Assembly (NCBI GenBank): GCA_035384565.1
Contig: DAOOIT010000002.1
Span: 8,579 to 72,578, forward strand
DNA from: Planctomycetota bacterium
GTDB taxonomy: Bacteria; Planctomycetota; PUPC01; DSUN01
Reading direction: 5' to 3'
Length of the DNA: 64,000 bases
Shown: piece by piece, positions 10,057 to 59,961 of the stretch
Layout of the letters: every line of letters starts with the position of its first letter
Numbering within the stretch: position 1 is the stretch's first letter
Notes under the pieces: model-generated
Told to the model about the DNA's origin: nothing
What the model saw: the letters and a program-made list of their open reading frames with translations, nothing else
The model's database searches: none
Position numbers and translations under genes: made by a program

Positions 10057-10814
10057 CCACCGCTCCGAGCCGAAGGTCCCGTGGCCGCGAGCCGCAGGAG
10101 GTCCGCACAGTCGGCCAACGGACGCTGGCTCAGCCTGTCCACAAGAACCCCCGAGGCGTCGTACATGGGATGGATCATGACTTCCGCGGACTGCGTCCGC
10201 GGCGTCACGCCTCTCCTGGCGAGAAGGTGCCGGTAGTCCTCGGCCGAGCCGAAGTAGTTCGTCCACGCGAGCCCCGCGCGTCTCAGGCGCAGGTTCGCCA
10301 GCTTGCGATAGGCCCAGGTGCCGAGGGATCGGCGCGGCCCGCAGTTCCGGGCGATCCGCACGTGCGGAATGCCCTCCTCGAGGCAGAGCCGCACCACCAC
10401 GGAGGCGATGGCCCACTCCTCGTGCACATGCTCGTGGGAGTCTGCGTGGGAGATCGGAATGCCACGCCTGCGGCACGCGGCAACCTGCGCCCCGAGTTCC
10501 CCCCGCAGCGCCGTCGTTTCGCTCGCGGACAGCCGCCACACGTGGGGGCGTTTGCGCAGGACGAAGGCGCCGTCTTCGTTGCAGAACCGCCGGCAGCGTC
10601 GGATCTCCTCGGTGAGGGGCAGGCCGTCAGTGAGGACGAGATGAACGCCCACGCGATGGGCAAGCCCGCGCTCGTGAGCCAGCTCGCACGCCTCCTCGAA
10701 CCCGGGCATGTTCGGCATGATCGTGGTGTCGGAGCAGTACCCGCGCTCGAAGCTCTCGAGGACGGCCCGGTTCACGTTCCCATCGAGCCCGAAGTCGTCG
10801 GCATTAACGACCAT
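10053..10814 (-). CDS. YdjC/ChbG/HpnK-family carbohydrate deacetylase
   Basis: MVVNADDFGL...HRVGVHLVLTDG... is the hallmark N-terminus of YdjC-like polysaccharide deacetylases; 253 aa. Confidence 0.8.
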   Translation of the reverse strand: MVVNADDFGLDGNVNRAVLESFERGYCSDTTIMPNMPGFEEACELAHERGLAHRVGVHLVLTDGLPLTEEIRRCRRFCNEDGAFVLRKRPHVWRLSASETTALRGELGAQVAACRRRGIPISHADSHEHVHEEWAIASVVVRLCLEEGIPHVRIARNCGPRRSLGTWAYRKLANLRLRRAGLAWTNYFGSAEDYRHLLARRGVTPRTQSAEVMIHPMYDASGVLVDRLSQRPLADCADLLRLAATGPSARSGG

Positions 10815-28373: not shown

Positions 28374-29225
28374 CTAGATGATGTCTGCAAAGCGCCGCTC
28401 GGTCTTGCGGAAGTAGAGGGTGCCGATGAGGATGGCGAGCAGGATGACGCCCGTGGAGACGGCGAGCTGGCCCCAGTGGAACGGCTTGCCGAGGATGGCG
28501 GAGCGGTAGGCGTCCACGATGCCGGTGAGGGGGTTGAGCAGGAGCAGCCACTGCCACCTCGGTGGCACGATCTGGACGGGGTAGAGGACGGGGGTGAGGA
28601 ACATCCAGATCTGGATGACGAAGGGGATCATGTAGCGGAAGTCGCGGTAGGTGACGTCGAGGGCGCTGAGCAGACACCCTACGCCGAAGGCGGCGAAGAT
28701 GGTGAGGGCGACCAGGGGCACGACGAGCAGCGTGGCCAGGGTGGGCGGGATGCTGTAGTAGAGCATCAGGCCGATGAGGATGGTGAAGGAGATCGCAAAG
28801 TCCACCAGGCATGCTCCGATGGCGGAGAGGGGGATGATGAGGCGTGGGAAGTAGACTTTGGTGATGAGGTTGGAGGAGCCGACGACGCTGCTGCTGCTGC
28901 GGCTGAGCGATTCGGAGAAGAATTGCCAGGGCAGCAGGCCGGCGTAGAGGAAGATGGGGTAGGGGAAGCCCTCGGAGTCGATCTTGGCCAGGCCGCCGAA
29001 GATGGCGCTGAAGATGACCATCTTGGTGAAGGGCTGGAGGAAGGCCCAGAGGAAGCCGAGCACGGTCTGCTTGTAGCGGACCTTGACGTCGCGCCAGGCG
29101 AGGAAGTAGAGGAGTTCGCGGTAGCGCCAGATTTCGCGGAAGTTGATGGGGAGCCAGCCCTTGCAGGGCTTGATGACCAGCTCGGGCAGCGGGGCCGGAG
29201 GGGCGGATGGCTCAGCGACGGCCAT
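28374..29225 (-). CDS. wzm: ABC-2 type polysaccharide exporter permease (Wzm-like)
   Basis: Start MAVAEPSAP...; 6-TM ABC-2 permease (WRDVKVRYKQTVLGFLWAFLQP...). The upstream part of the 402-aa track ORF is Pro/Ser/Arg-rich non-coding. Confidence 0.8.
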   Translation of the reverse strand: MAVAEPSAPPAPLPELVIKPCKGWLPINFREIWRYRELLYFLAWRDVKVRYKQTVLGFLWAFLQPFTKMVIFSAIFGGLAKIDSEGFPYPIFLYAGLLPWQFFSESLSRSSSSVVGSSNLITKVYFPRLIIPLSAIGACLVDFAISFTILIGLMLYYSIPPTLATLLVVPLVALTIFAAFGVGCLLSALDVTYRDFRYMIPFVIQIWMFLTPVLYPVQIVPPRWQWLLLLNPLTGIVDAYRSAILGKPFHWGQLAVSTGVILLAILIGTLYFRKTERRFADII

Positions 29226-30732
29226 GGGACTGTGCGGCTCCGGGGGCTGGATCGGGCGTGGCGGGGTCCGGGGCGTGAACGGGGCGCGACGGGGCGGGCA
29301 GGGAGGCCGGGTTGTGCTCGTCGAGGAGACGGGTGAAGTAGGCGAGCGTCTGGCCGGCGATTTCGAGCGAGCCGTTGACGGGGGCCTCGACCTGGGCATC
29401 GAGGCTCGCGCCGCTGCGGCGGTGGCGCACGGGGATGGTGGCCTTGAGGGTGGGGTGGCCCTGGGGGTTCGCCTGGCTCCAGGTGAGGGTGCGTTGCGTG
29501 CCGTCGCGGTTGTCGAGGGTGAGGGTGAGAGCGGCGAGCTGCATTTGGGCGGCGGCCGCGCAGAGGGCCTGCCACCATTCATCGAACGTGGTCGCTCGGC
29601 GGAGGCCCAGCTCGGCGCTCTCGAACTCGCGCCGGCCCTGTTGGATGGCGCGGGAGATGGCCAGCTTGCGCTGGATGCCCGCCATCGTGTCGCTCAGGGA
29701 CACGGAGCCCGCGATCCCGAAGACCAGGAGCAGGAGCACGAGGACGCCGGCGAGAACGAGAAGCTGCCCGGCGTCGCGCGTGAGCATCATGAACAGGCCC
29801 ATTCCTGCGGCAAGGATGGTGACGAGGTAGAGGATCAGGACGACGTGGCGGTGCTGGACGCCCATGTCGATCAGGCGGTGATGGATGTGGCCGCGGTCGG
29901 GCGCGAAGATCGAGCGGCGCTCGAGGAAGCGTCGGAGCATGCTGAACAGCGTGTCGAAGATGGGCACGCCCAGGGCGAGGGCGGGGAGCGCGAGACCCAC
30001 TATGGTGGATGCCTTGGTGGCGCAGAAGACGCTCGCGGTGGCCAGGACGAAGCCGAGGAAATAGGTGCCGCAGTCGCCCATGAAGACCTTGGCGGGGTTG
30101 AAGTTGTGGTAGAGGAAGCCCAGAAGGCTGCCCAGGAGAGCCGCCATGAGCACGGCCATGACCGCCTGGTTGGTGTGGATGGCGAAGATGCCGATGACCG
30201 CGCAGGCCGCCGCGCAGATGCCGGCGCACAGGCCGTCCAGGCCGTCAATCAGGTTCACGGCGTTGGTGATCCCGACGATCCAGAGGACTGTGAGGGGCCA
30301 CGAGAGCCAGCCGAGGTCGAGCGAGAGGACCCCCTTGACGACGATGGCCTCGATGCGGATGCCGAAGGCGCACACGCCGCAGGCGGCGGCCACCTGTATC
30401 AGGAGCTTGTAGCGGGCGCGAAGGCCGCGAACATCGTCCACCAGGCCCGCGACGGCGACCAGTCCGGCGAAGGCCAGAATCACAAGGAGGCCCTTCTGGG
30501 CGGCGCGCAGCGCGGTCCCGATGATGTTCGTCAGCGTCATCCCGAGGAGCACGGCAGCCGCCGTGGCCACGATGATGGCGACCCCGCCGACGCGGGGAAT
30601 GGCCCCGGAGTGGACCTTTCGGGGGTCCGGCCTGTCCACCAGGCGGATTCGGCGCGCAATCCATGCCACCAGGGGGGTGATGGCTAGCGAGAGCCCCGCC
30701 GCGGCGGCTACGGTGGCCACATAGGTCTTCAT
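29212..30732 (-). CDS. Polyprenyl-phosphate HexNAc-1-phosphate transferase, WecA/WbpL/TagO (MraY-family GT4 PNPT) with C-terminal extension
   Basis: ...ITNAVNLIDGLDGLCAG...FMGDCGTYFLGF...HIHHRLI... are the PNPT motifs; 11 TM helices plus a roughly 150-aa soluble C-terminal tail. Confidence 0.85.
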   Translation of the reverse strand: MKTYVATVAAAAGLSLAITPLVAWIARRIRLVDRPDPRKVHSGAIPRVGGVAIIVATAAAVLLGMTLTNIIGTALRAAQKGLLVILAFAGLVAVAGLVDDVRGLRARYKLLIQVAAACGVCAFGIRIEAIVVKGVLSLDLGWLSWPLTVLWIVGITNAVNLIDGLDGLCAGICAAACAVIGIFAIHTNQAVMAVLMAALLGSLLGFLYHNFNPAKVFMGDCGTYFLGFVLATASVFCATKASTIVGLALPALALGVPIFDTLFSMLRRFLERRSIFAPDRGHIHHRLIDMGVQHRHVVLILYLVTILAAGMGLFMMLTRDAGQLLVLAGVLVLLLLVFGIAGSVSLSDTMAGIQRKLAISRAIQQGRREFESAELGLRRATTFDEWWQALCAAAAQMQLAALTLTLDNRDGTQRTLTWSQANPQGHPTLKATIPVRHRRSGASLDAQVEAPVNGSLEIAGQTLAYFTRLLDEHNPASLPAPSRPVHAPDPATPDPAPGAAQSHGRR

Positions 30733-30740
30733 CGGAGCGC

Positions 30741-31241
30741 CTAGTCCACAGGCTCCAGGAGGTCAGCGTCCACCAGGAGCGCTGCACCGACACGAAGGAG
30801 GCTCACCTCGAGCACCAGTTGCGCGCGGGCCCGGCGGTCTACGACAACGCCCTCCAGGTCCGCGAAGGGCCCTGCTCTGACGCGGCATCGGCGGCCGACG
30901 GCGGCCTGAGGGTAAGGCTCCAGGTCGGCGCTGGCGGATATCGCGCGCTGGACGGCCGACAGCTCGCGGACCAGGCGTTCCTGGTCGGCCACCTCCAGGG
31001 TTCGGCAGACGCGGTTCGTCGTCAGCGCCGCGCGCCGAGCGGCCTCGTCGCCGCAGAAGAAGACATAAGAAGTGAAGAGGGGGATCAGCGTCCGGCGCTT
31101 GCGGCCGCCGGAGAAGAACACGTGCTGGCACAGCGGAAGGAAGTACCCGATGCCGTGGCGCAGCAGGTCCCAGGCGAGCGCCTTCTCGTTGCGGGCCTTG
31201 GTGTGCGCCACCCACCAGCGGCCCCGCAGGCCCGCCGGCAC
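30741..31241 (-). CDS. NusG/RfaH-family specialised transcription antitermination paralog
   Basis: ...RWWVAHTKARNEKALAWDLLRHGIGYFLP... (NGN domain) plus a C-terminal KOW-like CRVRAGPFADLEGVVVD. Sits 9 nt upstream of wecA at the head of the cluster. Start proposed at a GTG about 31241; the track ORF extends to 31622 through non-coding-like sequence. Confidence 0.65.
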   Translation of the reverse strand: MPAGLRGRWWVAHTKARNEKALAWDLLRHGIGYFLPLCQHVFFSGGRKRRTLIPLFTSYVFFCGDEAARRAALTTNRVCRTLEVADQERLVRELSAVQRAISASADLEPYPQAAVGRRCRVRAGPFADLEGVVVDRRARAQLVLEVSLLRVGAALLVDADLLEPVD

Positions 31242-32265
31242 CTCGACGCCGGGCGGCAGACTCGGCGGGTTCTCGGCAGCTTTCAGCACCAGCCAGTCCC
31301 CTTTGGGCCACACTCCGTCCCTGTCGGTGCACCGGCGGAGCCGGAAACCGAGGATACGTGTCCGCCGGTGCCAGTTCCTTCGGCGCCCCGGGCCCGCGGG
31401 GGGAGCCGGGCCAGAACGCCCGCGTGTTGCGCGCCGTGAGGGGGCACCCTCTCTTTGGACGGCAATGCCGCCCCTGGCCGGCCGCACAACCAAGCCGGCG
31501 GGCGACACGCCATGCCCGCCCCGCCGCCGGCCATGGCAGGCCCTTCTGCGGCGGGAGCCGGGGTGGACTGCAACTGCCGTATAGCCCGCATACACTATAG
31601 TGCATGGCGCCGAGCTTGTCAACGGAGCGCGGCCCGGCGTGGGGGAGAAGGCAGAGGGGGCGCGGAGCGCTGTGCTCAGCCCCTCCCTGCGCGTCGGGCC
31701 ACCTGGAGGTGCTTCTGCGAGGCGCCGGCGCGCCTGGTACTGAGGCGGTCGCGATGTGAGCTTCCGCCTTCGCCAGGGGCGCAGACTGCGCCCGGACCCG
31801 ACCCGCGAGCCGCCCCTCCCGAACGTTCCAATACGTTTCCCTCGTCCCTACGCTTTGCTCCTTCCTCTCGTCCCTACGCTCTGCGTGGGGACGCGCCTCT
31901 TGGCCGCTCCGCGGCCTCTTCGCTTCCGCGCGCGTCGGAGTGGGAACCTCCCGCGGGTTGCGAACCCGCGGGAGGTTGTCGGACGCGGGAGCGTCCGGAC
32001 CTCCGCCCCCACGCGGAGCATAGGGGCGAGAGAGAGGAATAGTTCCGGCCGCTGCAAACTGATTCACGGCCGGAGTAGTGGGGATCGCACCAGAGCGGAT
32101 GCCGCATTCCAGAAAGGCCATGAATTGCCAGACGCCGGCGGCAGGTTGGGGGACAGTTCTCGGAAGCCGCGCGCAAGTGATCCGCGTTCCACACCCTCAG
32201 ACATCGCAGCCGCCTTCCTGCCACTCAGCGATCGGCTTTGACAAACCGCTCCAAAGCTGCTACCG
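31242..32265. promoter_or_regulatory. Roughly 1 kb divergent leader/intergenic region upstream of the NusG paralog and the ABC binding-protein gene, holding direct and inverted repeats
   Basis: No convincing ORF (only Arg-rich shadow ORFs); contains direct repeats tcgtccctacgct (31842-31854 and 31868-31880), a 33-bp palindrome at 31935-31967 and the palindrome ggacgcgggagcgtcc at 31971-31986. Confidence 0.4.
31935..31967. repeat. Palindromic element aacctcccgcgggtt-gcg-aacccgcgggaggtt (copy 1; copy 2 at 57766-57799)
   Basis: 15-bp perfect inverted-repeat arms; a near-identical palindrome recurs inside a CDS at 57766-57799. Confidence 0.6.
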
Positions 32266-38970: not shown

Positions 38971-40353
38971 ATGGTGGCGCAGACTCGACGCGGTTTCCTC
39001 CGCCGCGCGGCCCTGGGTGGAGCGGGACTGGTCGACCTTGCCGGCAGCCGCTCTGCACGCACCTATGCGGCCAATGGCAAGCTGAACATCGCCCTCATCG
39101 GCTGCGGCGGGCGTGGGAAGTGGTTTGTGGACGTGATGCCGAAGATGGAGAACGTGGTGGCGCTGTGCGACGTGAACGAGAGCAAGGCCGAGGCCGCCTA
39201 CAAGCTCTTCCCCGATCTGCCGAAGTTCCACGACTTCCGCAAGATGCTCGACGAGATGAGCAAGCAGATTGACGCGGTGATCGTGTCCACGCCCGACCAC
39301 ACCCACGCCGTCGCCTGCGTGGCCGCGATGAAAGCGGGCAAGCACGCCTTCGTTGAGAAGCCGATGGCCGCCTGCCCCTACGAGGCCCGCACGATGCGCC
39401 TGACGGCCGAGAAGATGAAGGTCTCCTCCCAGATGGGCAACCAGGGCTCCGCCAGCGGGGCCTTTCGCCGCGGGGTCGAACTCGTCCAGGAAGGCGCGCT
39501 CGGCGAGGTCAAGGAGGCATTCGTCTGGAACTCCGGCGGCGGCCCCGACACCAAGGAAGCGCCCAAGGAAGAACTGCCGGTGCCGCCCTACCTGAAGTGG
39601 GACATCTGGCTCGGTCCGGCTCAAGACCGTCCCTTCCACCCCAAGTGGCTTGCCTGGAGCGGGTGGCGGGACTTCGGCACCGGGCAGCTCGGCATGTGGG
39701 GCTCGCACAGCGGCTACCTCGCCTTCTTCGCCCTCCAGGTGGTGGACCTCTGGCATGCCGACCCCGCCACCAAGCCCCGCATCAAAGTGCAGGCCGAGTT
39801 CTCGGGCATCAACAGGCTCTCCTATCCCAAGTGGGAGCTGGTGCATTTCGCCATTCCCGCGCGCGGCGGCATGCCACCGGCAACGATCCACTGGGTCAAC
39901 GGCGGCGGACTGGACTCGCCCTCCCGCAAGAAGATCGAGGGGCTTGTGGGCAGGCAGTTGGACTGGGGCGACGCGGGCGAGAAGAAATGGAAGGAGTTCG
40001 CCGGCTCTCTCCTTGTCGGCTCCAAGGGAATGATCCTCGGCGGCGGCCACAGCGCCACGACCGAGCTTCTGCCCGCCGACCAGTTCAAGGATGCGCAGAA
40101 GGACGCCCCGAAGAAGCTCCTCGGCTCGCAGGGGCCGGAGCGCGACTGGGTGCGGGCCGCCAAGGGCGAGAGCGTAACGCCCATGTCCAGCTTCAGCCTT
40201 GCCGGCCCCTACATGGAGATGATGCTCCTCGCCAACGTCGCCACCCTATGCGAAGGGGAGCTTGAGTACGACCCCTTGGAGGGCAAGATCACCAACAACG
40301 CGGAGGCCGATGCCCTCTTGCGCCGCCCCTACCGCGACGGCTGGTCGCTGTGA
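38971..40353 (+). CDS. Gfo/Idh/MocA-family oxidoreductase with twin-arginine signal, paralog 2
   Basis: TRRGFLRRAALGGAGL (twin-arginine motif); about 70% identical to paralog 1 over the N-terminal 150 aa (LNIALIGCGGRGKWFVDVMPKMENVVALCDVNESKAEAA.KLFPDLPKFHDFR). Confidence 0.8.
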   Translation: MVAQTRRGFLRRAALGGAGLVDLAGSRSARTYAANGKLNIALIGCGGRGKWFVDVMPKMENVVALCDVNESKAEAAYKLFPDLPKFHDFRKMLDEMSKQIDAVIVSTPDHTHAVACVAAMKAGKHAFVEKPMAACPYEARTMRLTAEKMKVSSQMGNQGSASGAFRRGVELVQEGALGEVKEAFVWNSGGGPDTKEAPKEELPVPPYLKWDIWLGPAQDRPFHPKWLAWSGWRDFGTGQLGMWGSHSGYLAFFALQVVDLWHADPATKPRIKVQAEFSGINRLSYPKWELVHFAIPARGGMPPATIHWVNGGGLDSPSRKKIEGLVGRQLDWGDAGEKKWKEFAGSLLVGSKGMILGGGHSATTELLPADQFKDAQKDAPKKLLGSQGPERDWVRAAKGESVTPMSSFSLAGPYMEMMLLANVATLCEGELEYDPLEGKITNNAEADALLRRPYRDGWSL

Positions 40354-40378
40354 GCGCGGGGCAGCGCCTGCCCCGCGC
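40354..40378 (+). terminator. GC-rich hairpin immediately after the stop codon (candidate intrinsic terminator, no U-tract)
   Basis: gcgcggggcag-cgc-ctgccccgcgc is a perfect 11-bp stem starting 1 nt after the TGA at 40351-40353. Confidence 0.4.
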
Positions 40379-46395: not shown

Positions 46396-46504
46396 CCAGG
46401 CGCTCCTTTCAACACGAGAGCTCTCCCACAGCCGCAGTCTAGGCTGCCTGGCATCCGGAATCAAGCAGCCATAGCCACCTTCCGCCACCGCTCAGGGTGC
46501 AAGC

Positions 46505-46765
46505 CGGGTGTGGGCCGGAATTGTAGGCGGCTGCGGGAGTTCCGAAGGAGCGAAATAGGATAGCCCAGGGCAACGCCCTGGGAACAAGACCGCCCCGCGG
46601 CAGCCCTGACAGGGCGGAATCGAGAGCTTCTATCTCGCCCCTTCAGGGCTGGACTCGTGGATCCCGCTGAACCCAGGGCGTTGCCCTGGGCTATCCCATG
46701 CGAGCCCTTCAGGCTCCAGAGACAATCACCCTGCCTGCAATTCCGGCCCGCACCCGTGCAAGCCG
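46505..46765. repeat. Nested inverted-repeat element in the divergent intergenic region
   Basis: Inner arms ggatagcccagggcaacgccctggg (about 46557-46581) and cccagggcgttgccctgggctatcc (about 46669-46693) are perfect reverse complements about 90 bp apart, and each arm is itself a hairpin (cccagggc-aac-gccctggg). Outer arms ggtgcaagccgggtgtgggccggaattg (about 46505-46532) and caattccggcccgcacccgtgcaagcc (about 46737-46763) give 18 of 19 matches in the core. Confidence 0.5.
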
Positions 46766-46906
46766 CTTGACTCGCCTCGAGGCGGGGCATATCTTCTCCC
46801 TGGGGAGCATGCTGGGTGGACCGCTGCGTGACATGCTGGGGGCCCGTGATCCCGGAGATACGAGATGAAAGAGGCTGCGTGTACGCCCCGCGAAGCGGCG
46901 GCCAGC

Positions 46907-51282: not shown

Positions 51283-51368
51283 GCCGGAGTGGCGGAATGG
51301 CAGACGCGCTGGATTCAAAATCCAGTGGCCGCAAGGTCGTGAGGGTTCGACTCCCTCCTCCGGCACCA
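51283..51368 (+). tRNA. tRNA-Leu (anticodon CAA)
   Basis: GCCGGAG-TG-GCGG-AATGGCAGA-CGC-G-CTGGA-TTCAAAA-TCCAG-[long variable arm TGGCCGCAAGGTCGT]-GAGGG-TTCGACT-CCCTC-CTCCGGC-A-CCA gives a cloverleaf with a 7/7 acceptor stem, anticodon loop tt-CAA-aa, a long extra arm typical of Leu, and an encoded CCA. Confidence 0.85.
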
Positions 51369-51522
51369 ACGACGCAGCACGCGGCAGGGCAAGGAGCCAT
51401 GTCATCCTGCCCTGGCCCTCTCCCATCTCACCTCTGGTGTCTCGCTCCACAGCCCGCTTTGCCATGATCCGTCTCCAGGCAATGCCGTGCGACCCGGAAC
51501 GACCCCAGCAGGAGGAGCGCCG

Positions 51523-54500
51523 ATGAGACCGGCCGTGCGGCTATCGCTGGTTCCGCGGGTTTTGGGCGCGACGGCCATCCTGGTTCTCGCGCTGGCGGCC
51601 TCTGCGATGCGGGCACAGGCTGACCTCGTGCTTGCAGACAAGGGGGGCACCGAGGCCGTCATCGTCCACAACGGCTTCGAGAGGCAGGCGAAGGACCTCC
51701 AGGCGTACCTCCTGAAGATCACGGGGGTGGAGCTCCCCTTCGGCGCGGAGGCCCCAGGGCGGCCCGCCATTGTGCTCCAAGTGGTCGAGAGGGTGCCCGG
51801 GGCGAGCGACCGCGCCACGGCGAAACAGGCATACCGAATTCACACGGAGGGCCACCGGTTGCTCCTCACCGCCGCGACCGAGCTGGGCCTCACCTATGCC
51901 GTCTGGGGCTTCCTCGAGGACCATCTCGGCTGCCGCTTCTACAGCTACTCGGCCATGCCGTTCAACAGATACCTCGGGCCGAAGTTCGAGCTCGTCCCCC
52001 AGCGGCCCCGCCTGCGGCTGGGCCAGATAGACGAGGTGCAGGAGCCGGCCTTCCAGCTCCGCGGCTTCGTCTACTACCTGAGCCTCGGCGACTGGCTCTT
52101 CAAGAACCGCGGCGGCGGCCTGCCCATCGCACCCCACGGCGGAGCCGTGTGCGGCACCCACAACTTCTACCACTTCGCCGACCCGAAGACCTACTTCGAG
52201 AAGCACCCCGAGTGGTATCCGCTCCGCGGCGGCAAGCGCCAGCACGACTGGGCCATGGGCCTCTGCGGCACCAATGAGGAACTGGCCAGAGAGCTGGCGA
52301 AGAACCTGATGGAGAAGCAGATGGCGAAGTGGAAGGACCCCGCGTTGCCCATCCCCCTCGCCCAGGGCGACGGCTACACGGGCTGCCAGTGCCCCGCCTG
52401 CCGCGAACTGGTGGAGAGGGAGGGCACCGAGGCCGCACCGCTGCTCCTGCTCCTCAACCGCATCCTGGATATCACGACCAGGACCTATCCCGACCTCCAG
52501 ATCGTCACCTTCTCGTACTTCGAAACCCTCATCCCGCCGAAGACGATGAAGCCGCATCCGAACCTGTGGTTCAACGTCGTCTCCAGCTCCCTCTCGCAGA
52601 ACCACGCCGGCGACCAGGTCGGGCCGATTCGCGGCAACCCCGCCAACCGCGATTACCTGCGGGCCATCGAGGGCTGGCCCAGGCTCGCCCCAGGCCGCGT
52701 GACCCTCTGGGACTGGGCGCTCACCAGCAACCCCCTCGTCGAGTGGCCCAACCTCTTCTTCCTGCCCGACAACGTCCGCCTCTGGCACGAGAGCGGCGTC
52801 ACGGGCGCCGCCCTCCAGGTCTGCTGGGGCACAAGCAACTGGAACTGGCTGCGTAACTGGCTCTTCCTCAAGCTCGCCTGGAACCCCAGGGCCGATGCTG
52901 AGAAGCTCATCCGCCAGTTCCTCGACGACTACTATGGCCGCCGCGCGGCAGGGCACCTTTGGGAGTACCTGCGGCTCACCAGGCAGGCGTACGAGGACGC
53001 CTGCCACAGCTACGTCCCCAGCGGCGTCCGCTGGACCTATTGGCCCCAGAACCTGCGGGCGAAGATGTACCCGCCAGACGTGTTGGAGAAGATGGATGCC
53101 CTGATGGCCCGGGCCATGCGCGCCGCGGCGCGCGAGCGCGACCCCCTCTATGCCCAGCACGTGGCCGAAGCGCGGGCGACGAGTGTGGACCTGCTCGTGC
53201 TCGACGAGGCGCGCTGCGCCGCGCCGTTCCAGCCCGTGAGCTGCCGCGAGGACGGCCAGCGCTGGCTCGTGCCCGGCGGCCGGGCCGACCTGCCGGCCCG
53301 CATCCGCCGCATCGCCGACATCTACGCCCTGGGCGACAACAGCGAGCACGGCCCCGAGCGCGAGACCTCCTGGTTCGTCGCCTCCCAGGGCGGCCTCATC
53401 GCCTCGTTGCGAAACGCCCACTACGCCGTGGACGTCGTGCCGAACCTCCGCGGCCAGATCACCAGCATCGTCCACCTGCCCACGGGCAAGGAGATCCTGG
53501 CCGCCGACGGCGCCGAGTTCGGCTACCGGGACCTGTTCGACCGCATCAGCTCGCAGCTCTGGAGCCTGGCGGGGGAGGGGAGGCGGCCTGAAGGCCGTAC
53601 TGCGAGCGTGGAGACGGACCTCCTCCTCTCGCCGCCCTACTGGGGATTCACCAAGGCGAATCGCATGCCCCGCTCCGTCGCCTTCACGCCCGACGGCGCG
53701 GGCGTCGTTGTGTCCCGCCGTTATGAGCAGGACAAGGGCGGCGGCCTGCCGGACAAGACGCGCTTCACCACCCGCTGGATGCTCCAGTTGCCCGAGCCCG
53801 CGAGGGCGCGGGTGGCCGTCCGCGGCGGCGGCATCGAGCGAATGCTCGACCTGCGCCACGTCCGGCCCGGCGGCGTCCGCGGCGAGAGAGTCGGCGAGCG
53901 CCTGCCGGGCGCCGACTTCATGGACCAGCGCTTCGATGACGTGACGGCCGTCTCCGACGCGCAGGTCGTCTCGCTGCCCATCGCTGATCCCGAGGGCGAG
54001 GTCGCCGTGCGCCTCGACCGCGGCGACGGCCTCCTCGTCACCCTCACCCTTCCCGCGGCGGGCTGGGAGCGGATGGACCTCCAGCCCGTGGCCGAGAAGC
54101 GCCGCCTCACCGTCACCCTCGTCGGCACGCCGGCCGCGACGGACAAGGAGGCCAGAGCCATTGAGCTGCCGACGCAGACGCTACGGGTCAGCAATGCCCC
54201 CGTTCGCAGTGCGGGCTTCAGCCCCTCTCCGAGCGAAGAGAAGATACGGCCTGAAGGCCGCACTACAAGCGCCATCCGGGTTGTCGGCGACGGGCGGGCG
54301 GTGAACGAGCGCGATGGCGCCGAACTGGTCTGGGTGCCTGCGGGCGAGTTCCTGCGCGGCAGCCCGAAGGGCGAGGGCAGCGCCGACGAGCGGCCGCAGC
54401 GGAAGGTCTGCCTCGACGGCTTCTGGGTCTACAGGTTCCCCGTCACGCTCAAGCAGTACCGGGCATTCTGCGAGAAGGCCGGCCGCGAGATGCCGCCCCT

Positions 54501-56676: not shown

Positions 56677-59600
56677 GTGAACCCGATGGGGCGAACCCTG
56701 GTGTGTGGCCTGGCTTTCCTGCTGTGCGCGGCGGCCCAGGCCGGCAGCCTGGCGGATACGCCGACGCAGTACCTGATCCGCAAGCCGCCGAAGCCCGTGG
56801 TGATTGACGGCAGGCTGGACGAGTGGGACCTGGCGGCCTCGCCCTACGTCATCAGCCCGACGAGCAAGGACCCGCTCTCCAGCATCCACGCCAACGAGCC
56901 GACGAATCCGCCGAAGGGCGATGCCGACATCAGCGGCCGGGCCGCTCTCGCCTGGGACGAGCAGTGTCTCTACGTGGCCGGCCAGATGGTGGACGACCAT
57001 CTCGTGGGCATCAAGCCCGACAGCGCCGGCAACCAGGGGCCGCCCGGCTGGGGCTGCGACAGCCTGATGCTGCTCGTCCACTCCTTCCGCCAGCCGATGA
57101 AGACCAACTCGCCCTACAGCAAGACCCCCTTCCTCGGTCTCCGCTACGCGCCCACCGGCCCGAATCCGCGCGGGAGGCTGCTGCCCGACGCCGCGGCCCT
57201 CGACAAGCGCGACGCCTATTGGGTGCTCACCGAGAACTCGAAGTGGGCCTGCACCGAGACGCCCCAGGGCTACAACGTCGAGGCGGCCATCCCGTGGAAG
57301 GACCTCGCCTTCGCGCCGCGGCCCGGCGAGAGGCTCTTCATGGCATTCCTCGCCGCCGACATTGATCCCGATGAGGCCCTCAACCAGGTCGGCTGGGGCT
57401 TCCACGGCGAGCCGAAGGACTGCCCGATCTTCCGCCTCGTGGAGCAGGACGACGCCCTCGGCCTCCTCACCCTCTCGATGGACGATGTGCCCTCCAACAA
57501 GGGGCTGGCCGTTCGCGCCGAGCTGGACGCCCTGAAGGACGGTGTTCGCATCGAGGCCATCGTCGTGCGGAACGCCCAGGACAAGGTGGTGCAGGAGGCG
57601 AAGGCACCCCTGGATGTGCCGAAGGGCAAGACCGGCCAGGCACTCGTCGAGCTTTCGCCCATCGCCGAACCGGGCGGCTATCTTGCAGAGCTGGTGGCGC
57701 GGACGCCGCGGGGCGGGGTCGTCGCCGCGAGGGAGCCGTTCTGTGTCGTCGCGCCCGAGAGCGTTAACCTCCCGCAGGTTTCGAAACCTGCGGGAGGTTT
57801 CCCGGGCGAAATTCATCACATGCCGCCCGACCGCATCGCGCACAACGCCTGGAGCGCCCACCGCACCGGCTTCTACAAGCACGGCTACGTCAAGGGCAAG
57901 GAGGACTACGTGCCCTGGCTCCGCAAGTACGTCGAGCCCGGCCTCAAAGGGCGGGCGCAGCAGTACGCCAAAGGCGGCAACCCCTGGGCCTACCGCGAAG
58001 CCTTCCAGTGCCTGGCCATGCACCGTCTCACTGCCGACCCCGAATATGCCGCCCTCGCCCGCGACGTGATGGACGCCATGCTCAAGATCGAGGAAGAGAA
58101 GGGGATGGGCTGGTTCCAGTTCACCAGCACCGCCATGTACCGCTACCTCACGTGGCTGAAGGACCCGAAGAGCCCCTTCGCCCCGCCCGACGCCGAGAAG
58201 CGCTATCGGGCGATTCTGCTCAAGGTCGCCGCACAGCCCGAACCGCACCTTTTCAACGAATCGGGCACCCACAATCGCGTGTGGCACCGCTATTCGATTC
58301 AGAAGGCCGCCCGCCAGGTGGCCGAGGCCGACGGCAAGCCGATTGACCCGCGCATCATCGAATACACCAACTACCACGACAAGCTGATCGGCGCGGTGGG
58401 CGACGACGACGACAACTCGGCGGGCTATCACTGGGTCTTCTTCGATGCCGCCGCCGCGCTCTACTTCCACACGGGCGACTGGGGGGCGTTTGCCCAGCAC
58501 AAGGGCTTCCGCCGCACCCTCGCCCGCTACGTTGAAATGGTCGCCCCCAGCGGCGCCTGCGTCCCCTTCGGCTCCGGCTCCGGCTGGCCCGAGGTCGGCC
58601 ACTCGATGTGGGCCTACGAGTGGATGTCCAACATCACCCGCGACGGCCGCTTCCGCTGGACCAGCCACCGCATCGCCGAGTACTTCTATAATCACATGGA
58701 TTACCGCGCGAACCAGTACCACCTGCCGTTTGACAACGCCCGCGACAACTTCGTCCTCGCCTACCTCTTCGCCGACGATGCGGTGCAGCCGGCCCCGCCC
58801 TCGGGCCAGAGCCGCATCACCTGGCGCCACCCGATGGCCAGGGTGCCGCTCGAGGAGTTGAAGGCCCGGCCCGGCCTGTGGCACCTGCGGATGGACGGCT
58901 CGCAGTGGGTGCCCGACAAGCTGGTGCTCGCCAGCGGCGCCCAGGCGCAGGACCTCTGGGGCCTCGTGGAGCTGTTGCCCCACGGCGGCCACTGCGGCGA
59001 GCTGCCAGGCAACCTCACCAACCTGATGATCCACGACGGCGCGCTCCTCGCCGGCAACGGCTACTACGAGCTGACGCCCGACTTCAATAACATTCTGTGG
59101 GTGGAAGACCTGGACGGCCTGGCCGCCGACCCGCGGCCCATGACCACCGAGGTGCCGGTCTTCGTGGAAGACCCCGCCTTCACCTTCGCCCGCATCAGGA
59201 CCACCGCCTACCAGCACCTGCCGCTCACCTACACCCGCGACATCCTGTTCGTCAAGAACGGCTTCATCGTGGTGAAGGACCGCGTGGAGTTCGGGGCGAC
59301 GATGAAGGTGCGGCTCGGCCCCTGCTACCAGACCCGCAGCCTCGGCCCCGAGTGCGGCGAGAACTGGTTCAACGCCTGGTTCGACCAGCTCTACTACACC
59401 GGCCTCGGCCTCGGACGCGGCGTCCAGGCCATCCGCAATCCCTCTTGGGACCTCCTGGTCTACTTCACGCCGCGTGCCGACCGCACGCACACGGTGCAGG
59501 ACAAGACGATGGAGAACGTGTGGCGGAACGCCCCCGTGCAGTTGCGGCAGGTGTGGTCGGGCATGGCCAGGGCGGGGCAGACGCTCACGTTCACCAGCAT

Positions 59601-59961
59601 CCTCCTGCCGCACGTCCCCTCCATGACCCCGAGCGAGTTCCTCAAGGACCAGAAGCGCATCGAAGTAGCGCACGATGATGACGACCTGACCGTGCTCAAG
59701 GCCACAAGCGAGATGGACCCGATGAACAAGCTCCGCAGTGACACGTGGGTGATGCTCAACACCACGGGCAAGCCCGCCTCCGCCGGCCCGCTGGCGAGCG
59801 ATGGCATGCTCGCCGTCATCGGCCACGACCACATTGGGCAGATTCAGTCCCGCGTCGTCGTTGGCGGCAAGTCGCTCACCTATCGCGGCGCCGACGAATC
59901 GCCCAAGGCCCGCACGCACGAGGCCAAGCCCGCCCAACTTCCCCAGGAACTCCTCGAGTGA
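56677..59961 (+). CDS. Large secreted protein with N-terminal CBM9-like domain and C-terminal lyase/hydrolase-like region (heparinase II/III-like, tentative)
   Basis: Signal MGRTLVCGLAFLLCAAAQA; VIDGRLDEWDLAASPYVISP...GYNVEAAIPWKDLAF is CBM9-like; the rest (about 900 aa) has no firm family call. Contains the in-CDS palindrome at 57766-57799. Confidence 0.6.
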   Translation: MNPMGRTLVCGLAFLLCAAAQAGSLADTPTQYLIRKPPKPVVIDGRLDEWDLAASPYVISPTSKDPLSSIHANEPTNPPKGDADISGRAALAWDEQCLYVAGQMVDDHLVGIKPDSAGNQGPPGWGCDSLMLLVHSFRQPMKTNSPYSKTPFLGLRYAPTGPNPRGRLLPDAAALDKRDAYWVLTENSKWACTETPQGYNVEAAIPWKDLAFAPRPGERLFMAFLAADIDPDEALNQVGWGFHGEPKDCPIFRLVEQDDALGLLTLSMDDVPSNKGLAVRAELDALKDGVRIEAIVVRNAQDKVVQEAKAPLDVPKGKTGQALVELSPIAEPGGYLAELVARTPRGGVVAAREPFCVVAPESVNLPQVSKPAGGFPGEIHHMPPDRIAHNAWSAHRTGFYKHGYVKGKEDYVPWLRKYVEPGLKGRAQQYAKGGNPWAYREAFQCLAMHRLTADPEYAALARDVMDAMLKIEEEKGMGWFQFTSTAMYRYLTWLKDPKSPFAPPDAEKRYRAILLKVAAQPEPHLFNESGTHNRVWHRYSIQKAARQVAEADGKPIDPRIIEYTNYHDKLIGAVGDDDDNSAGYHWVFFDAAAALYFHTGDWGAFAQHKGFRRTLARYVEMVAPSGACVPFGSGSGWPEVGHSMWAYEWMSNITRDGRFRWTSHRIAEYFYNHMDYRANQYHLPFDNARDNFVLAYLFADDAVQPAPPSGQSRITWRHPMARVPLEELKARPGLWHLRMDGSQWVPDKLVLASGAQAQDLWGLVELLPHGGHCGELPGNLTNLMIHDGALLAGNGYYELTPDFNNILWVEDLDGLAADPRPMTTEVPVFVEDPAFTFARIRTTAYQHLPLTYTRDILFVKNGFIVVKDRVEFGATMKVRLGPCYQTRSLGPECGENWFNAWFDQLYYTGLGLGRGVQAIRNPSWDLLVYFTPRADRTHTVQDKTMENVWRNAPVQLRQVWSGMARAGQTLTFTSILLPHVPSMTPSEFLKDQKRIEVAHDDDDLTVLKATSEMDPMNKLRSDTWVMLNTTGKPASAGPLASDGMLAVIGHDHIGQIQSRVVVGGKSLTYRGADESPKARTHEAKPAQLPQELLE
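57766..57799. repeat. Perfect 34-bp palindrome aacctcccgcaggtt-tcga-aacctgcgggaggtt inside the CDS (copy 2 of the element at 31935-31967)
   Basis: The exact reverse complement of itself; arms differ from copy 1 by one compensated position (G/A); encodes ...NLPQVSKPAGGF... in frame. Confidence 0.6.

What the first reader, a model, noticed from the sequence alone, without database searches (positions are those of the whole stretch)
31935..31967. The same 15-bp-arm palindrome occurs in the operon leader and, in frame, inside a secreted-enzyme gene 26 kb away
aacctcccgcGggtt-gcg-aacccGcgggaggtt (31935-31967) and aacctcccgcAggtt-tcga-aacctGcgggaggtt (57766-57799) have the same length and spacing, and each is internally self-complementary with the single difference compensated on the other arm. 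Two 33-34-bp palindromes sharing 13 of 15 arm positions cannot be chance in 64 kb. The pattern looks like a maintained protein-binding site or RNA hairpin: a dimeric transcription-factor operator, or a REP/MITE-like small palindromic element. The second copy sits inside the CBM9-lyase-like gene (encoding NLPQVSKPAGGF). So it is either a tolerated in-frame insertion or an intragenic regulatory or attenuation site linking the glycan-synthesis leader to the glycan-degradation locus.
Basis: seen in the sequence. Interest (0 to 1): 0.6.

Follow-up and report, generated by a model that had tools for sequence, protein, structure and literature searches.

The report
REP hairpin repeats, one inside a gene
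The two palindromes are copies of a small selfish hairpin repeat (a REP element, the kind spread by a RAYT transposase) found in many environmental bacteria; one copy lies among other repeats between genes, the other sits harmlessly in a floppy linker of a polysaccharide lyase, and nothing indicates a regulatory link between the two loci.

Summary
Both palindromes are real, but the first is at 31945-31977, not 31935-31967. They are the only perfect stems of 12 bp or more in the window.

The same hairpin, A-N-CCTCCCGC-R-GGTT / loop / AACC-Y-GCGGGAGG-N'-T, occurs in at least 120 loci from about 60 MAGs. These are mostly Chloroflexota, with Planctomycetota, Latescibacterota and Zixibacteria. A relaxed pattern hit at least 120 further metagenome contigs. 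Loop length varies, flanks are unrelated, and the unconstrained stem pairs covary. About 75-80% of copies are intergenic. Others are read in frame, in different frames, inside unrelated proteins.

The key result is that a 192-aa REP-associated tyrosine transposase (RAYT) family is flanked by these hairpins in all 6 loci examined, including the exact window sequence. This is the REPtron arrangement.

Copy 2 is absent from 32 of 33 aligned homologs and lies in the only disordered internal segment of a CBM9-polysaccharide-lyase-like protein. Copy 1 is nested in a cluster of other palindromic repeats. Orthologous leaders lack that cluster, and it probably lies upstream of the promoter.

Verdict: the REP option and the tolerated in-frame option are supported. 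The operator and regulatory-link options are not. This is a new member of a known kind, of modest interest.

The parts
31945..31977 (.). REP hairpin copy 1 (family A, G:C central pair): 15-bp perfect stem, 3-nt loop, intergenic
   Evidence: An identical core occurs in many MAG and metagenome loci.
57766..57799 (.). REP hairpin copy 2 (family A, A:T central pair): 15-bp stem with 4-nt loop (a perfect 34-bp palindrome), read in frame as NLPQVSKPAGG(F)
   Evidence: Absent from 32 of 33 aligned homologs. Residues 362-373 are the only internal segments with pLDDT below 50.
31859..32038 (.). Composite palindromic element ('family C') in which copy 1 is nested. Outer arms are 31859-31893 and 32004-32038 (35 nt, 83% complementary), and each arm is itself a hairpin of type CGTCCCYACGC-TCY-GCGTGGGGACG.
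   Evidence: (z -5.6). 28 of 28 nt are identical to Planctomycetota MAG locus L041 4464-4491, which has the same architecture without the family-A hairpin.
31902..31916 (.). Inner hairpin 1 of the composite element (GGCCGCTCCGCGGCC)
   Evidence: Conserved in L041.
31981..31996 (.). Inner hairpin 2 of the composite element (GGACGCGGGAGCGTCC)
   Evidence: Conserved in L041.
31836..31858 (.). Partial direct repeat of the left family-C arm
   Evidence: D1: 87% to 31862-31884.
31814..31837 (.). Decayed half-copy of the sister hairpin family B (CCCTCCCGAACGTTCCAATACGTT); the 3' arm is missing
   Evidence: 24 of 24 nt identical to the intact hairpin at L121 10625-10648..
56677..59961 (+). Host gene of copy 2: secreted CBM9 + (alpha/alpha)-toroid polysaccharide-lyase-like protein, 1094 aa
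   Evidence: GC3 0.91; Foldseek matches to alginate, heparinase III and GAG lyases, and to CBM9.
30741..31313 (-). Context: NusG paralog (190 aa), first gene of the polysaccharide-synthesis operon, followed by GT4 at 29212-30732
31594..31622 (-). Context: sigma-70-like promoter TTGACA-17-TATAGT (11 of 12). It lies between copy 1 and the NusG-paralog gene.
   Evidence: 0.1 expected in shuffles. This is a consensus match only.

Best explanation
The two palindromes are copies of a REP (repetitive extragenic palindrome) family. This is a roughly 33-nt hairpin repeat whose cognate enzyme is a 192-aa REP-associated tyrosine transposase (RAYT, an HUH/Y1 enzyme).

Shown here:
- The hairpin is a dispersed, multi-copy, mostly extragenic repeat with an invariant stem, a variable loop and covarying free pairs.
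- RAYT genes in related metagenomic loci are bracketed by exactly this hairpin (REPtron arrangement).
- Copy 2 is a lineage-restricted acquisition in a disordered interdomain linker.
- Copy 1 is nested in a cluster of other palindromic repeats that orthologous leaders lack.

Inferred from what is established for E. coli TnpA_REP and Pseudomonas REPINs (own knowledge; PMC6006769):
- The hairpin forms in single-stranded DNA, for example during replication.
- It is bound, cleaved and rejoined by a RAYT acting in trans, which spreads and homogenises copies.
- Copies persist where they do little harm. Any effect on transcript 3' ends or local expression is secondary.

The two window copies are related by family membership, not by a shared regulatory function.
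For: Distribution:
- At least 120 loci in about 60 MAGs carry the exact core.
- At least 120 metagenome contigs match the relaxed pattern.
- Multiple copies occur per genome: 5 on one 5.97-Mb Planctomycetota scaffold and 7 contigs of one Latescibacterota MAG.

Sequence and structure:
- Flanks are unrelated, and flank GC ranges from 0.41 to 0.72.
- At two stem pairs left free by the pattern, 123 of 134 hits are Watson-Crick at both, with four main variants.
- Formal test: 107 cells changed on both sides vs 24 +/- 3.8 in shuffles (0 of 500 reach it); 97% paired vs 36-55% with the partner slid.

Location:
- About 80% and about 72% of copies are intergenic, at a median of about 52 nt from a stop codon.
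- 17 of 40 neighbour gaps are 16-61 nt, i.e. close doublets. Those inspected are in inverted orientation.

RAYT association:
- The L155 ORF scores 27.6 bits on Pfam Y1_Tnp (cut-off 23) and E 2e-21 on NCBIfam REP_Tyr_transpos.
- The HUH and Tyr motifs are invariant in 10 homologs. PDB 4ER8 TnpA_REP is the only meaningful hit.
- All 6 RAYT loci are flanked by the hairpins, 13-29 nt before the start. Where a downstream hairpin is present it lies 0-8 nt after the stop, except L253 (113 nt); L177 ends before the stop.
- L254 has the exact family-A sequence on both sides. L250 has a 4-nt-loop copy like window copy 2.

Copy 2: absent from 32 of 33 aligned homologs; pLDDT below 50 only at 362-367 and 369-373.

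Copy 1: orthologous leaders share no similarity with the cluster.

Precedent: in-frame REPs in unrelated ORFs and REP arrays flanking EPS clusters are described in PMC3733652.
Against: - No RAYT gene is present in the 64-kb window, and the rest of the source genome could not be searched.
- All named RAYT homologs are from Chloroflexota, whereas the window looks Planctomycetota-like.
- The hairpin has no GTAG or CGTC tag. In E. coli that tag guides RAYT recognition.
- Copy 2 is not a clean insertion: 33 nt were replaced by 48 nt.
- Both window copies are singletons rather than inverted doublets.
Confidence: 0.8

Rival explanations
1. The hairpin is primarily a functional RNA element, such as a U-tract-less or bidirectional terminator, a 3'-end stabiliser or an attenuator. 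On this reading it is selected for that role, and the RAYT association is incidental.
For: Copies lie at a median of about 52 nt downstream of stop codons and are enriched between convergent genes (23 convergent vs 7 divergent). The hairpin is very stable. Covariation preserves pairing. REPs are known to act this way secondarily (PMC3733652).
Against: Only 14 of 125 copies have a T-rich tail, and the scan does not call either window copy terminator-like. Convincing copies sit inside long ORFs, where termination would be harmful. An RNA role does not explain an invariant 26-nt stem sequence across phyla or the stereotyped flanking of RAYT genes. There is no Rfam match.
Confidence: 0.1
2. The palindrome is the operator of a dimeric transcription factor, or another double-stranded-DNA-binding protein, that co-regulates the polysaccharide-synthesis operon and the lyase locus.
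For: It has perfect dyad symmetry, and two copies lie near glycan-related genes in one 64-kb window.
Against: Half-site spacing varies from 2 to 8 nt and from 3 to 10 nt under the relaxed pattern, which does not fit a dimer binding double-stranded DNA. No gene family or regulator recurs within 2.5 kb of 122 copies. Most copies lie after gene 3' ends. Orthologous leaders and 32 of 33 aligned lyase homologs lack it.
Confidence: 0.03
3. It is a minimal MITE: two abutted terminal inverted repeats of a DDE-type insertion sequence, moved by cut-and-paste with target-site duplications.
For: It has inverted arms with a short variable spacer and presence/absence polymorphism among close relatives.
Against: There is no excess of flanking direct repeats at any offset. 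No DDE transposase recurs nearby. Flanking bases extend the stem by complementarity rather than as direct repeats. The associated gene is a Y1/HUH enzyme.
Confidence: 0.03
4. The match is coincidental and arises from codon usage and GC-rich sequence.
For: None beyond the high GC content (67%).
Against: No shuffle of 100 reproduces the matches. Hundreds of identical copies occur elsewhere. The hairpin is read in three different frames in unrelated proteins.
Confidence: 0

Closest known systems
REP / REPIN elements with their RAYT (TnpA_REP) transposases (E. coli REP/BIME, Pseudomonas REPINs; REPtron arrangement)
   Same: A 20-40-nt GC-rich hairpin. It is multi-copy, mostly extragenic and close to gene 3' ends, and often occurs as inverted doublets. 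A single-domain HUH/Y1 RAYT gene is bracketed by the same hairpins. Copies occasionally sit in frame inside ORFs. Stem pairing is kept through compensated changes.
   Different: There is no unpaired GTAG (or CGTC) tag and no conserved flank at all. The stem is long and essentially perfect (15 bp), so the unit is a near-perfect palindrome. The same stem sequence is shared across several phyla. Observed copy numbers are modest. The two window copies are singletons.
GTAG- and CGTC-tagged REP superfamilies (Di Nocera et al. 2013, PMC3733652)
   Same: Same general kind and the same genomic behaviour: head-to-head dimers, in-frame copies in unrelated proteins, and arrays next to EPS gene clusters. 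That paper notes that untagged stem-loop families also exist.
   Different: The defining tetranucleotide tag was tested and is absent (GTAG in 1 and CGTC in 4 of 122 copies). The element therefore belongs to neither superfamily.
Rickettsia palindromic elements (RPE)
   Same: Palindromic repeats that are tolerated in frame inside protein-coding genes and add short peptide segments to unrelated proteins.
   Different: RPEs are about 100-150 nt and restricted to Rickettsia. Here the unit is 33-34 nt, is mostly intergenic, and is tied to a RAYT.
IS200/IS605 subterminal hairpins and PATEs
   Same: Single-stranded-DNA hairpins recognised by a Y1/HUH transposase of the same protein superfamily (Pfam PF01797).
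   Different: Those hairpins are the ends of a mobile unit that carries tnpA or tnpB, and they differ between the left and right ends. Here the hairpin itself is the dispersed unit and the RAYT gene appears to be single and stationary (inferred).
Rho-independent terminators
   Same: A stable GC-rich hairpin shortly after stop codons.
   Different: Most copies have no U-tract, the stem sequence is conserved between genomes, and some copies lie inside ORFs.

Membership tests
REP/RAYT system | Short (about 20-40 nt) palindromic stem-loop unit | tested here: met
   33-34 nt, 15-bp perfect stems. DNA-fold dG -18.7 to -20.2 kcal/mol.
REP/RAYT system | Many dispersed copies with unrelated flanks, several per genome | tested here: met
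Flanks are unrelated. 5 copies lie on one Planctomycetota scaffold and 7 contigs of one Latescibacterota MAG carry it. The window has 2 copies in 64 kb. The whole source genome could not be counted.
REP/RAYT system | Predominantly extragenic, typically near gene 3' ends | tested here: met
   About 80% and about 72% are intergenic by crude ORF calls, where roughly 85-90% coding would be expected if placement were random. Median distance from a stop codon is about 52 nt.
REP/RAYT system | REPtron: a RAYT gene flanked by copies of the same hairpin | tested here: met
   6 of 6 RAYT loci (L155, L177, L250/251, L252, L253, L254). L254 and L250 carry the exact family-A sequence. This was shown in other metagenomic loci, not in the source genome.
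REP/RAYT system | A RAYT is present in the same genome as the REPs | not testable with these tools
   No RAYT in the window by tblastn. The rest of contig Ga0116238_10000025 and the rest of the genome could not be read.
REP/RAYT system | The associated protein is a Y1/HUH transposase with HUH and catalytic Tyr motifs | tested here: met
   Pfam Y1_Tnp 27.6 bits (cut-off 23). NCBIfam REP_Tyr_transpos E 2e-21 at 76.4 bits, just under its 80-bit equivalog cut-off. YCLMPNHYH and CRYxHxNP are invariant. Weak PDB hit to 4ER8.
REP/RAYT system | Inverted doublets (REPIN/BIME organisation) | tested here: inconclusive
   Common in the superfamily: 17 of 40 neighbour gaps are 16-61 nt, and inverted pairs occur in L121, L130, L179, L191 and L229. 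Both window copies are single; copy 1 is nested in a cluster of other hairpins.
REP/RAYT system | RAYT binds, cleaves and rejoins the REP hairpin in single-stranded DNA | not testable with these tools
   Requires biochemistry.
GTAG- or CGTC-tagged REP superfamilies | Conserved unpaired GTAG or CGTC tetranucleotide at one end of the hairpin | tested here: not met
   Flank positions are near-uniform. GTAG occurs in 1 and CGTC in 4 of 122 copies.
Transcription-factor operator (dimeric) | Fixed spacing between half-sites | tested here: not met
   Loop of 2-8 nt; gap of 3-10 nt in the relaxed pattern.
Transcription-factor operator (dimeric) | Recurrent association with a regulator gene or a functional regulon, upstream of genes | tested here: not met
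   No recurrent family among 1638 neighbouring ORFs. Copies favour gene 3' ends.
Intrinsic terminator | GC-rich hairpin followed by a U/T tract | tested here: not met
   14 of 125 copies have at least 6 T in the 9 nt after the stem. Neither window copy is called by the scan.
MITE | Target-site duplication flanking terminal inverted repeats | tested here: not met
   No excess of flanking direct repeats at offsets 0-3.
Any Rfam family | Covariance-model match at or near the gathering score | tested here: not met
   No hit at the gathering threshold. The best permissive hits are 13-25 bits against thresholds of 39-90.

The most novel reading that the evidence does not exclude
This may be a previously undescribed, untagged REP superfamily (CCTCCCG-NN-GGT...ACC-N'N'-CGGGAGG) with its own clade of 192-aa RAYTs. 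It is shared by Chloroflexota, Planctomycetota, Latescibacterota, Zixibacteria and others.

The enzyme would recognise the stem sequence itself rather than a GTAG guide. New copies may arise by templated replacement of partly similar sequence rather than by simple insertion. The non-clean +15-nt replacement at copy 2, whose ancestral site already contains AACC...AACCTGC, hints at this.
Probability: 0.3. Interest if true: 0.5.

Novelty: new member of a known kind. Interest (0 to 1): 0.3.

Why it matters
For annotating this window, the result removes a tempting but unsupported regulatory story. The two loci are not linked by a shared operator. The intragenic copy is a passenger in a disordered linker of a polysaccharide lyase.

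More generally, it documents a REP/RAYT pair in poorly studied environmental phyla. The pair has an unusually long, perfect and cross-phylum-conserved stem and no GTAG guide. That makes it a clean substrate for asking how RAYTs recognise their hairpins and how single REPs get copied. It also gives another example of REPs adding peptide segments to proteins and accumulating next to polysaccharide gene clusters.

Tried and rejected
- Rfam at gathering and permissive thresholds: nothing relevant.
- Full-text search for the arm sequences: only unrelated primer or shRNA hits.
- Viral contigs and PLSDB plasmids: no copies, so there is no evidence for a phage or plasmid vector.
- Target-site duplications: none.
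- GTAG or CGTC tag, or any conserved flank: none.
- T-tract or terminator signature: absent in most copies.
- Enrichment of a neighbouring gene family in the first 120 loci: none. ORFs bracketed by hairpin pairs in L018, L072 and L081 were peptidyl-tRNA hydrolase, an AraC/GyrI-like regulator and an MscS-like channel by my reading of their translations (no family scan was run on them), and not transposases. The RAYT only emerged from the metagenome loci.
- Mimicry of the 16S rRNA helix-45 3' strand (AACCUGCGG) or of a tRNA T-arm or minihelix: considered from memory. I dropped it because the loop is variable in sequence and length and the RAYT link explains the conservation. It was not formally tested.
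- Independent insertion at the same site in the window and P0003: unnecessary, because the alleles are recombinant mosaics.
- Exact look-up of the 1094-aa protein failed because of a different start codon. The source contig was instead identified through the NusG paralog.
- One hairpin-inventory script had an indexing bug and was redone.
Full report
OBSERVATION

Both palindromes are present. Copy 1 is AACCTCCCGCGGGTT-GCG-AACCCGCGGGAGGTT at 31945-31977, ten bases right of the coordinates given. Copy 2 is AACCTCCCGCAGGTT-TCGA-AACCTGCGGGAGGTT at 57766-57799, a perfect 34-bp palindrome. The arms differ at one position (14 of 15 shared, not 13), and the difference is compensated on the other arm. 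The loops are 3 and 4 nt, so length and spacing are similar but not identical.

Chance does not explain the match. The arm pattern with up to 2 mismatches matches 5 times against 0.28 +/- 0.47 in shuffles, and none of 100 shuffles reached 5. These are the only perfect stems of 12 bp or more with short loops in the window. As single-stranded DNA they fold at about -19 to -20 kcal/mol, z about -7 to -8.

CONTEXT IN THE WINDOW

The window is identical to part of JGI metagenome 3300010347, contig Ga0116238_10000025 (258.5 kb). The closest named relative of its NusG paralog is from a Planctomycetes MAG (82% identity), and others are Phycisphaerae. The closest named relatives of the lyase are Armatimonadota at 61% identity or less. 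The lineage is probably Planctomycetota, but this is not settled.

Copy 1 lies in a divergent intergenic region of about 950 nt. On one side is a 190-aa NusG paralog (30741-31313, minus strand) that heads a polysaccharide-synthesis operon starting with a GT4 transferase. On the other side is a sugar ABC-transporter operon. A near-consensus sigma-70-type promoter (TTGACA-17-TATAGT, 11 of 12) lies at 31622-31594 on the minus strand. If that promoter is used, copy 1 is about 330 nt upstream of it and is not part of the leader transcript. This is a consensus match only.

Copy 2 is in frame in ORF 56677-59961 (GC3 0.91). The AlphaFold model of that protein (pLDDT 86.9, pTM 0.84) matches alginate, heparinase-III and glycosaminoglycan lyases, plus a CBM9 module.

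THE HAIRPIN IS A WIDESPREAD REPEAT

Most are Chloroflexota (Anaerolineae, Thermoflexia, Ardenticatenia). Three are Planctomycetota, with five copies on one 5.97-Mb scaffold. Three are Latescibacterota, with seven contigs from one MAG. Zixibacteria, LCP-89 and a few singletons make up the rest.

Across 124 copies the consensus is A-N-[CCTCCCGC-R-GGTT]-loop-[AACC-Y-GCGGGAGG]-N'-T.
- The loop is 2-8 nt, and 3 nt in 86 copies.
- The pair just outside the core covaries (A:T 67, C:G 20, T:A 12, G:C 9), and the next position out is random.
- Flanks are unrelated, with flank GC from 0.41 to 0.72.

The core itself is fixed by the search pattern and so says nothing about conservation. I therefore ran the single metagenome scan with two stem pairs left free (CCTCCCGNNGGT-N(3-10)-ACCNNCGGGAGG). 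This again returned at least 120 contigs. Of 134 hits, 123 are Watson-Crick at both free pairs (about 6% expected). There are four main variants: CA/TG 59, AA/TT 36, GA/TC 14 and CG/CG 13.

On a pooled alignment of 149 distinct copies, 107 cells show changes on both sides, against 24 +/- 3.8 in shuffles (0 of 500 reach the observed value). Pairing is 97%, against 36-55% when the partner is slid. Ten of the 15 pairs are invariant by construction, so the signal comes from the other five.

Diverged copies with compensated changes also occur, for example CCTTCC...GGAAGG and GATT...AATC.

The hairpin is absent from 2.9 million viral contigs and 72,556 plasmids. It matches no Rfam family, and its sequence is not in the searchable literature.

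WHERE COPIES SIT

By crude ORF calling, about 80% of the MAG copies and about 72% of the metagenome copies are intergenic. They lie at a median of about 52 nt from a stop codon. In the MAG set, convergent gene pairs are enriched (23 convergent vs 7 divergent).

Close doublets are common: 17 of 40 neighbour gaps are 16-61 nt. Those inspected are in inverted orientation, and some pair two different stem variants.

A minority of copies lie convincingly inside long ORFs of unrelated proteins. They are read in different frames, as NLPQVxNLREV, NLPQVSKPAGG or PPAGxQPAGG. The conserved unit is therefore the nucleotide sequence and not a peptide. The core contains no stop codon in any frame (direct reading of the sequence).

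There is no GTAG or CGTC tag and no other conserved flank. There is no target-site duplication. Only 14 of 125 copies have a T-rich tail.

THE ASSOCIATED ENZYME

No gene family recurred near the first 120 loci, and genes bracketed by hairpin pairs there were housekeeping genes.

In the metagenome loci, however, L155 carries a 192-aa ORF with identical hairpins 14 nt before its start and 8 nt after its stop.
- It passes Pfam Y1_Tnp (27.6 bits, cut-off 23).
- It matches NCBIfam 'REP-associated tyrosine transposase' (E 2e-21; 76.4 bits, just under the 80-bit equivalog cut-off).
- Its only meaningful PDB hit is E. coli TnpA_REP, 4ER8 (weak, E 0.003).
- The HUH motif (YCLMPNHYH) and the tyrosine motif (CRYxHxNP) are invariant in ten homologs.

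About 2000 homologs exist. Many are exactly 192 aa. Several are labelled 'REP element-mobilizing transposase RayT' by JGI, and the named ones are from Chloroflexota.

I examined every RAYT locus I could fetch, and all six are flanked by hairpins of this superfamily:
- L254 has the exact family-A sequence 13 nt upstream and 4 nt downstream.
- L250/L251 have a 4-nt-loop family-A copy 3 nt after the stop, plus a split copy upstream.
- L252 has four copies of CCTCCCGCAGGT-ctgga-ACCTGCGGGAGG, three upstream and one at the stop.
- L253 has the GA/TC variant 14 nt upstream.
- L177 has a family-A copy 22 nt upstream of a RAYT N-terminus at the contig end.
- L155 is described above.

This REP-RAYT-REP arrangement (REPtron) is the feature that defines REP/RAYT systems (PMC6006769). 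It also explains the cross-phylum identity of the stem: RAYT genes are described as patchily distributed through horizontal transfer and loss (same paper).

COPY 2 IN DETAIL

Among 33 aligned homologs, only the window protein and P0003 (85% identity) carry NLPQVSKPAGG. P0002 (89% identity) and all 31 others have a shorter PPxxR---NLPG at that position.

At the DNA level, 33 nt of the ancestral linker (GAACCGCCCATCGTGCGGAACCTGCCG in P0002) are replaced by 48 nt that include the 34-nt palindrome. The net change is +15 nt. This is not a clean insertion, and the ancestral sequence already contains AACC...AACCTGC.

The three closest alleles are recombinant mosaics. The window is nearer P0003 around the hairpin and nearer P0002 just upstream of it. 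One acquisition followed by homologous exchange is therefore enough to explain the pattern.

In the structure model, the only internal segments with pLDDT below 50 are residues 362-367 and 369-373. They lie between the last strand of the N-terminal beta-sandwich region (346-358) and the helical catalytic domain (from 391). The hairpin-encoded peptide is thus a passenger in a disordered interdomain linker.

COPY 1 IN DETAIL

Copy 1 is embedded in a 180-nt composite palindrome, 31859-32038 (fold z -5.6). The outer arms are inverted copies of another hairpin, CGTCCCYACGC-TCY-GCGTGGGGACG. Two small inner hairpins lie at 31902-31916 and 31981-31996.

A Planctomycetota MAG (L041) has the same composite element. 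It is 28 of 28 nt identical in one arm, has the same inner hairpins, and folds with z -8.1, but it lacks the family-A hairpin. In the window, the family-A hairpin plus about 29 further nt lie between the two inner hairpins.

Just upstream, at 31814-31837, is a decayed half of a sister hairpin, CCCTCCCGAACGTTCCAATACGTT. This sister hairpin is intact and paired as inverted doublets in the close relative L121.

The leaders of the orthologous NusG-paralog operons in L127 (82% identity) and L128 (71%) share nothing with this cluster. Only about 24 nt next to the start codon align. The cluster is therefore a lineage-specific accumulation of repeats, not a conserved leader element.

The close relatives differ in repeat content. 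L121 has one family-A and four family-B copies in 14 kb, while L123 and L124 have none. This is the turnover expected of mobile repeats.

MECHANISM AND RIVALS

The best explanation (confidence 0.8) is that both palindromes are REPs of a RAYT family.

Shown: repeat-family membership, maintenance of the structure, extragenic bias, the RAYT flanking, lineage-restricted presence, and the linker location.

Inferred from E. coli and Pseudomonas work: the hairpin forms in single-stranded DNA and is cut and rejoined by a RAYT acting in trans.

The main caveats are these:
- No RAYT was seen in this window or shown in this genome.
- Named RAYT relatives are from Chloroflexota.
- There is no GTAG guide.
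- The copy-2 junction is not clean.

A primary RNA role (terminator or stabiliser) is possible as a secondary effect, but it does not explain the conserved stem sequence, the RAYT flanking or the intragenic copies (0.1). A transcription-factor operator is contradicted by the variable spacing, the lack of any recurrent neighbouring gene, and the absence from orthologs (0.03). A DDE-type MITE is contradicted by the lack of target-site duplications and by the Y1 enzyme (0.03). Chance is excluded.

COMPARISON AND NOVELTY

The element works like, and meets the main defining tests of, a REP/RAYT system. It fails the test for the GTAG- and CGTC-tagged superfamilies of Di Nocera et al. (PMC3733652). 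That paper also documents in-frame REPs in unrelated proteins and REP arrays flanking an EPS cluster.

It resembles Rickettsia palindromic elements in being tolerated in frame, but it is far smaller and is linked to a RAYT.

I found no description of this particular hairpin. It is best called a new member of a known kind. It has some unusual traits: a long perfect stem, no tag, and the same stem in several phyla. Interest is modest (0.3).

Noticed in passing
window 46489-46864: A second palindromic cluster lies in another divergent intergenic region. The Rfam Acido-Lenti-1 hit at 46538-46582 (minus strand; 38.7 bits, gathering score 37) is the hairpin AGCCCAGGGCAACGCCCTGGG. An inverted partner, CCCAGGGCGTTGCCCTGGGCT, lies about 110 nt away (~46672-46692), and a 23-nt-arm inverted repeat sits between them (46601-46651). 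This looks like a REPIN-type doublet, which suggests that the Acido-Lenti-1 'sRNA' motif may itself be a REP-like repeat.
   Followed up: partly
window 31859-32038; L041 4460-4575; L046 2409-2460: A composite palindromic element of about 115-180 nt is shared with a Planctomycetota MAG (28 of 28 nt identical in one arm). It consists of inverted copies of the hairpin CGTCCCYACGC-TCY-GCGTGGGGACG plus two inner hairpins. It is a separate repeat family, and its mobilising enzyme, if any, is unknown.
   Followed up: partly
L121 4392-4421 / 4460-4489 and 10626-10655 / 10697-10726; window 31814-31837: Sister hairpin family CCCTCCCGAAGGT-(TCCGAT/ATTGGA)-ACCTTCGGGAGGG occurs as inverted doublets about 40 nt apart in the closest relative. 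The window keeps only a decayed half-copy. Heterodimers of different stem variants also occur (L130 3075/3149).
   Followed up: partly
window 31594-31622 (minus strand): A near-consensus sigma-70-type promoter, TTGACA-17-TATAGT (11 of 12; 0.1 expected), lies about 280 nt upstream of the NusG-paralog start. This implies a long 5' UTR for the polysaccharide operon and places the repeat cluster upstream of the promoter.
   Followed up: no
window 30741-31313 (minus strand): The first gene of the polysaccharide-synthesis operon is a 190-aa NusG paralog (RfaH/LoaP-like; some homologs are labelled RfaH by JGI). The longest ORF (293 aa) overcalls its start. No RfaH-type ops sequence (GGCGGTAG) was found in the leader.
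   Followed up: partly
window 56677-59961 compared with L121 and L123: The lyase gene is a recombinant mosaic among the three closest alleles. P0003 has a highly divergent block (55-70% identity) at about 57500-57720, within the beta-sandwich region just upstream of the linker.
   Followed up: partly
window 40354-40378: A perfect 11-bp GC-rich hairpin (GCGCGGGGCAG-cgc-CTGCCCCGCGC) starts immediately after the stop codon of the oxidoreductase gene 38971-40353. It is probably that operon's terminator hairpin.
   Followed up: no
window 51283-51368 and 51487-55038: tRNA-Leu(CAA) lies just upstream of a 1183-aa protein that combines DUF4838 with a C-terminal FGE-sulfatase (formylglycine-generating enzyme-like) domain. 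It sits in a locus rich in glycan-degrading genes (GH5, GH172/DUF2961, lyase).
   Followed up: no
L253 1-1308: One RAYT locus (GCA_034411995.1 contig DAOUME010000009.1) lies next to small ORFs and a faint phage-portal hit, so that RAYT may sit beside a prophage remnant.
   Followed up: no
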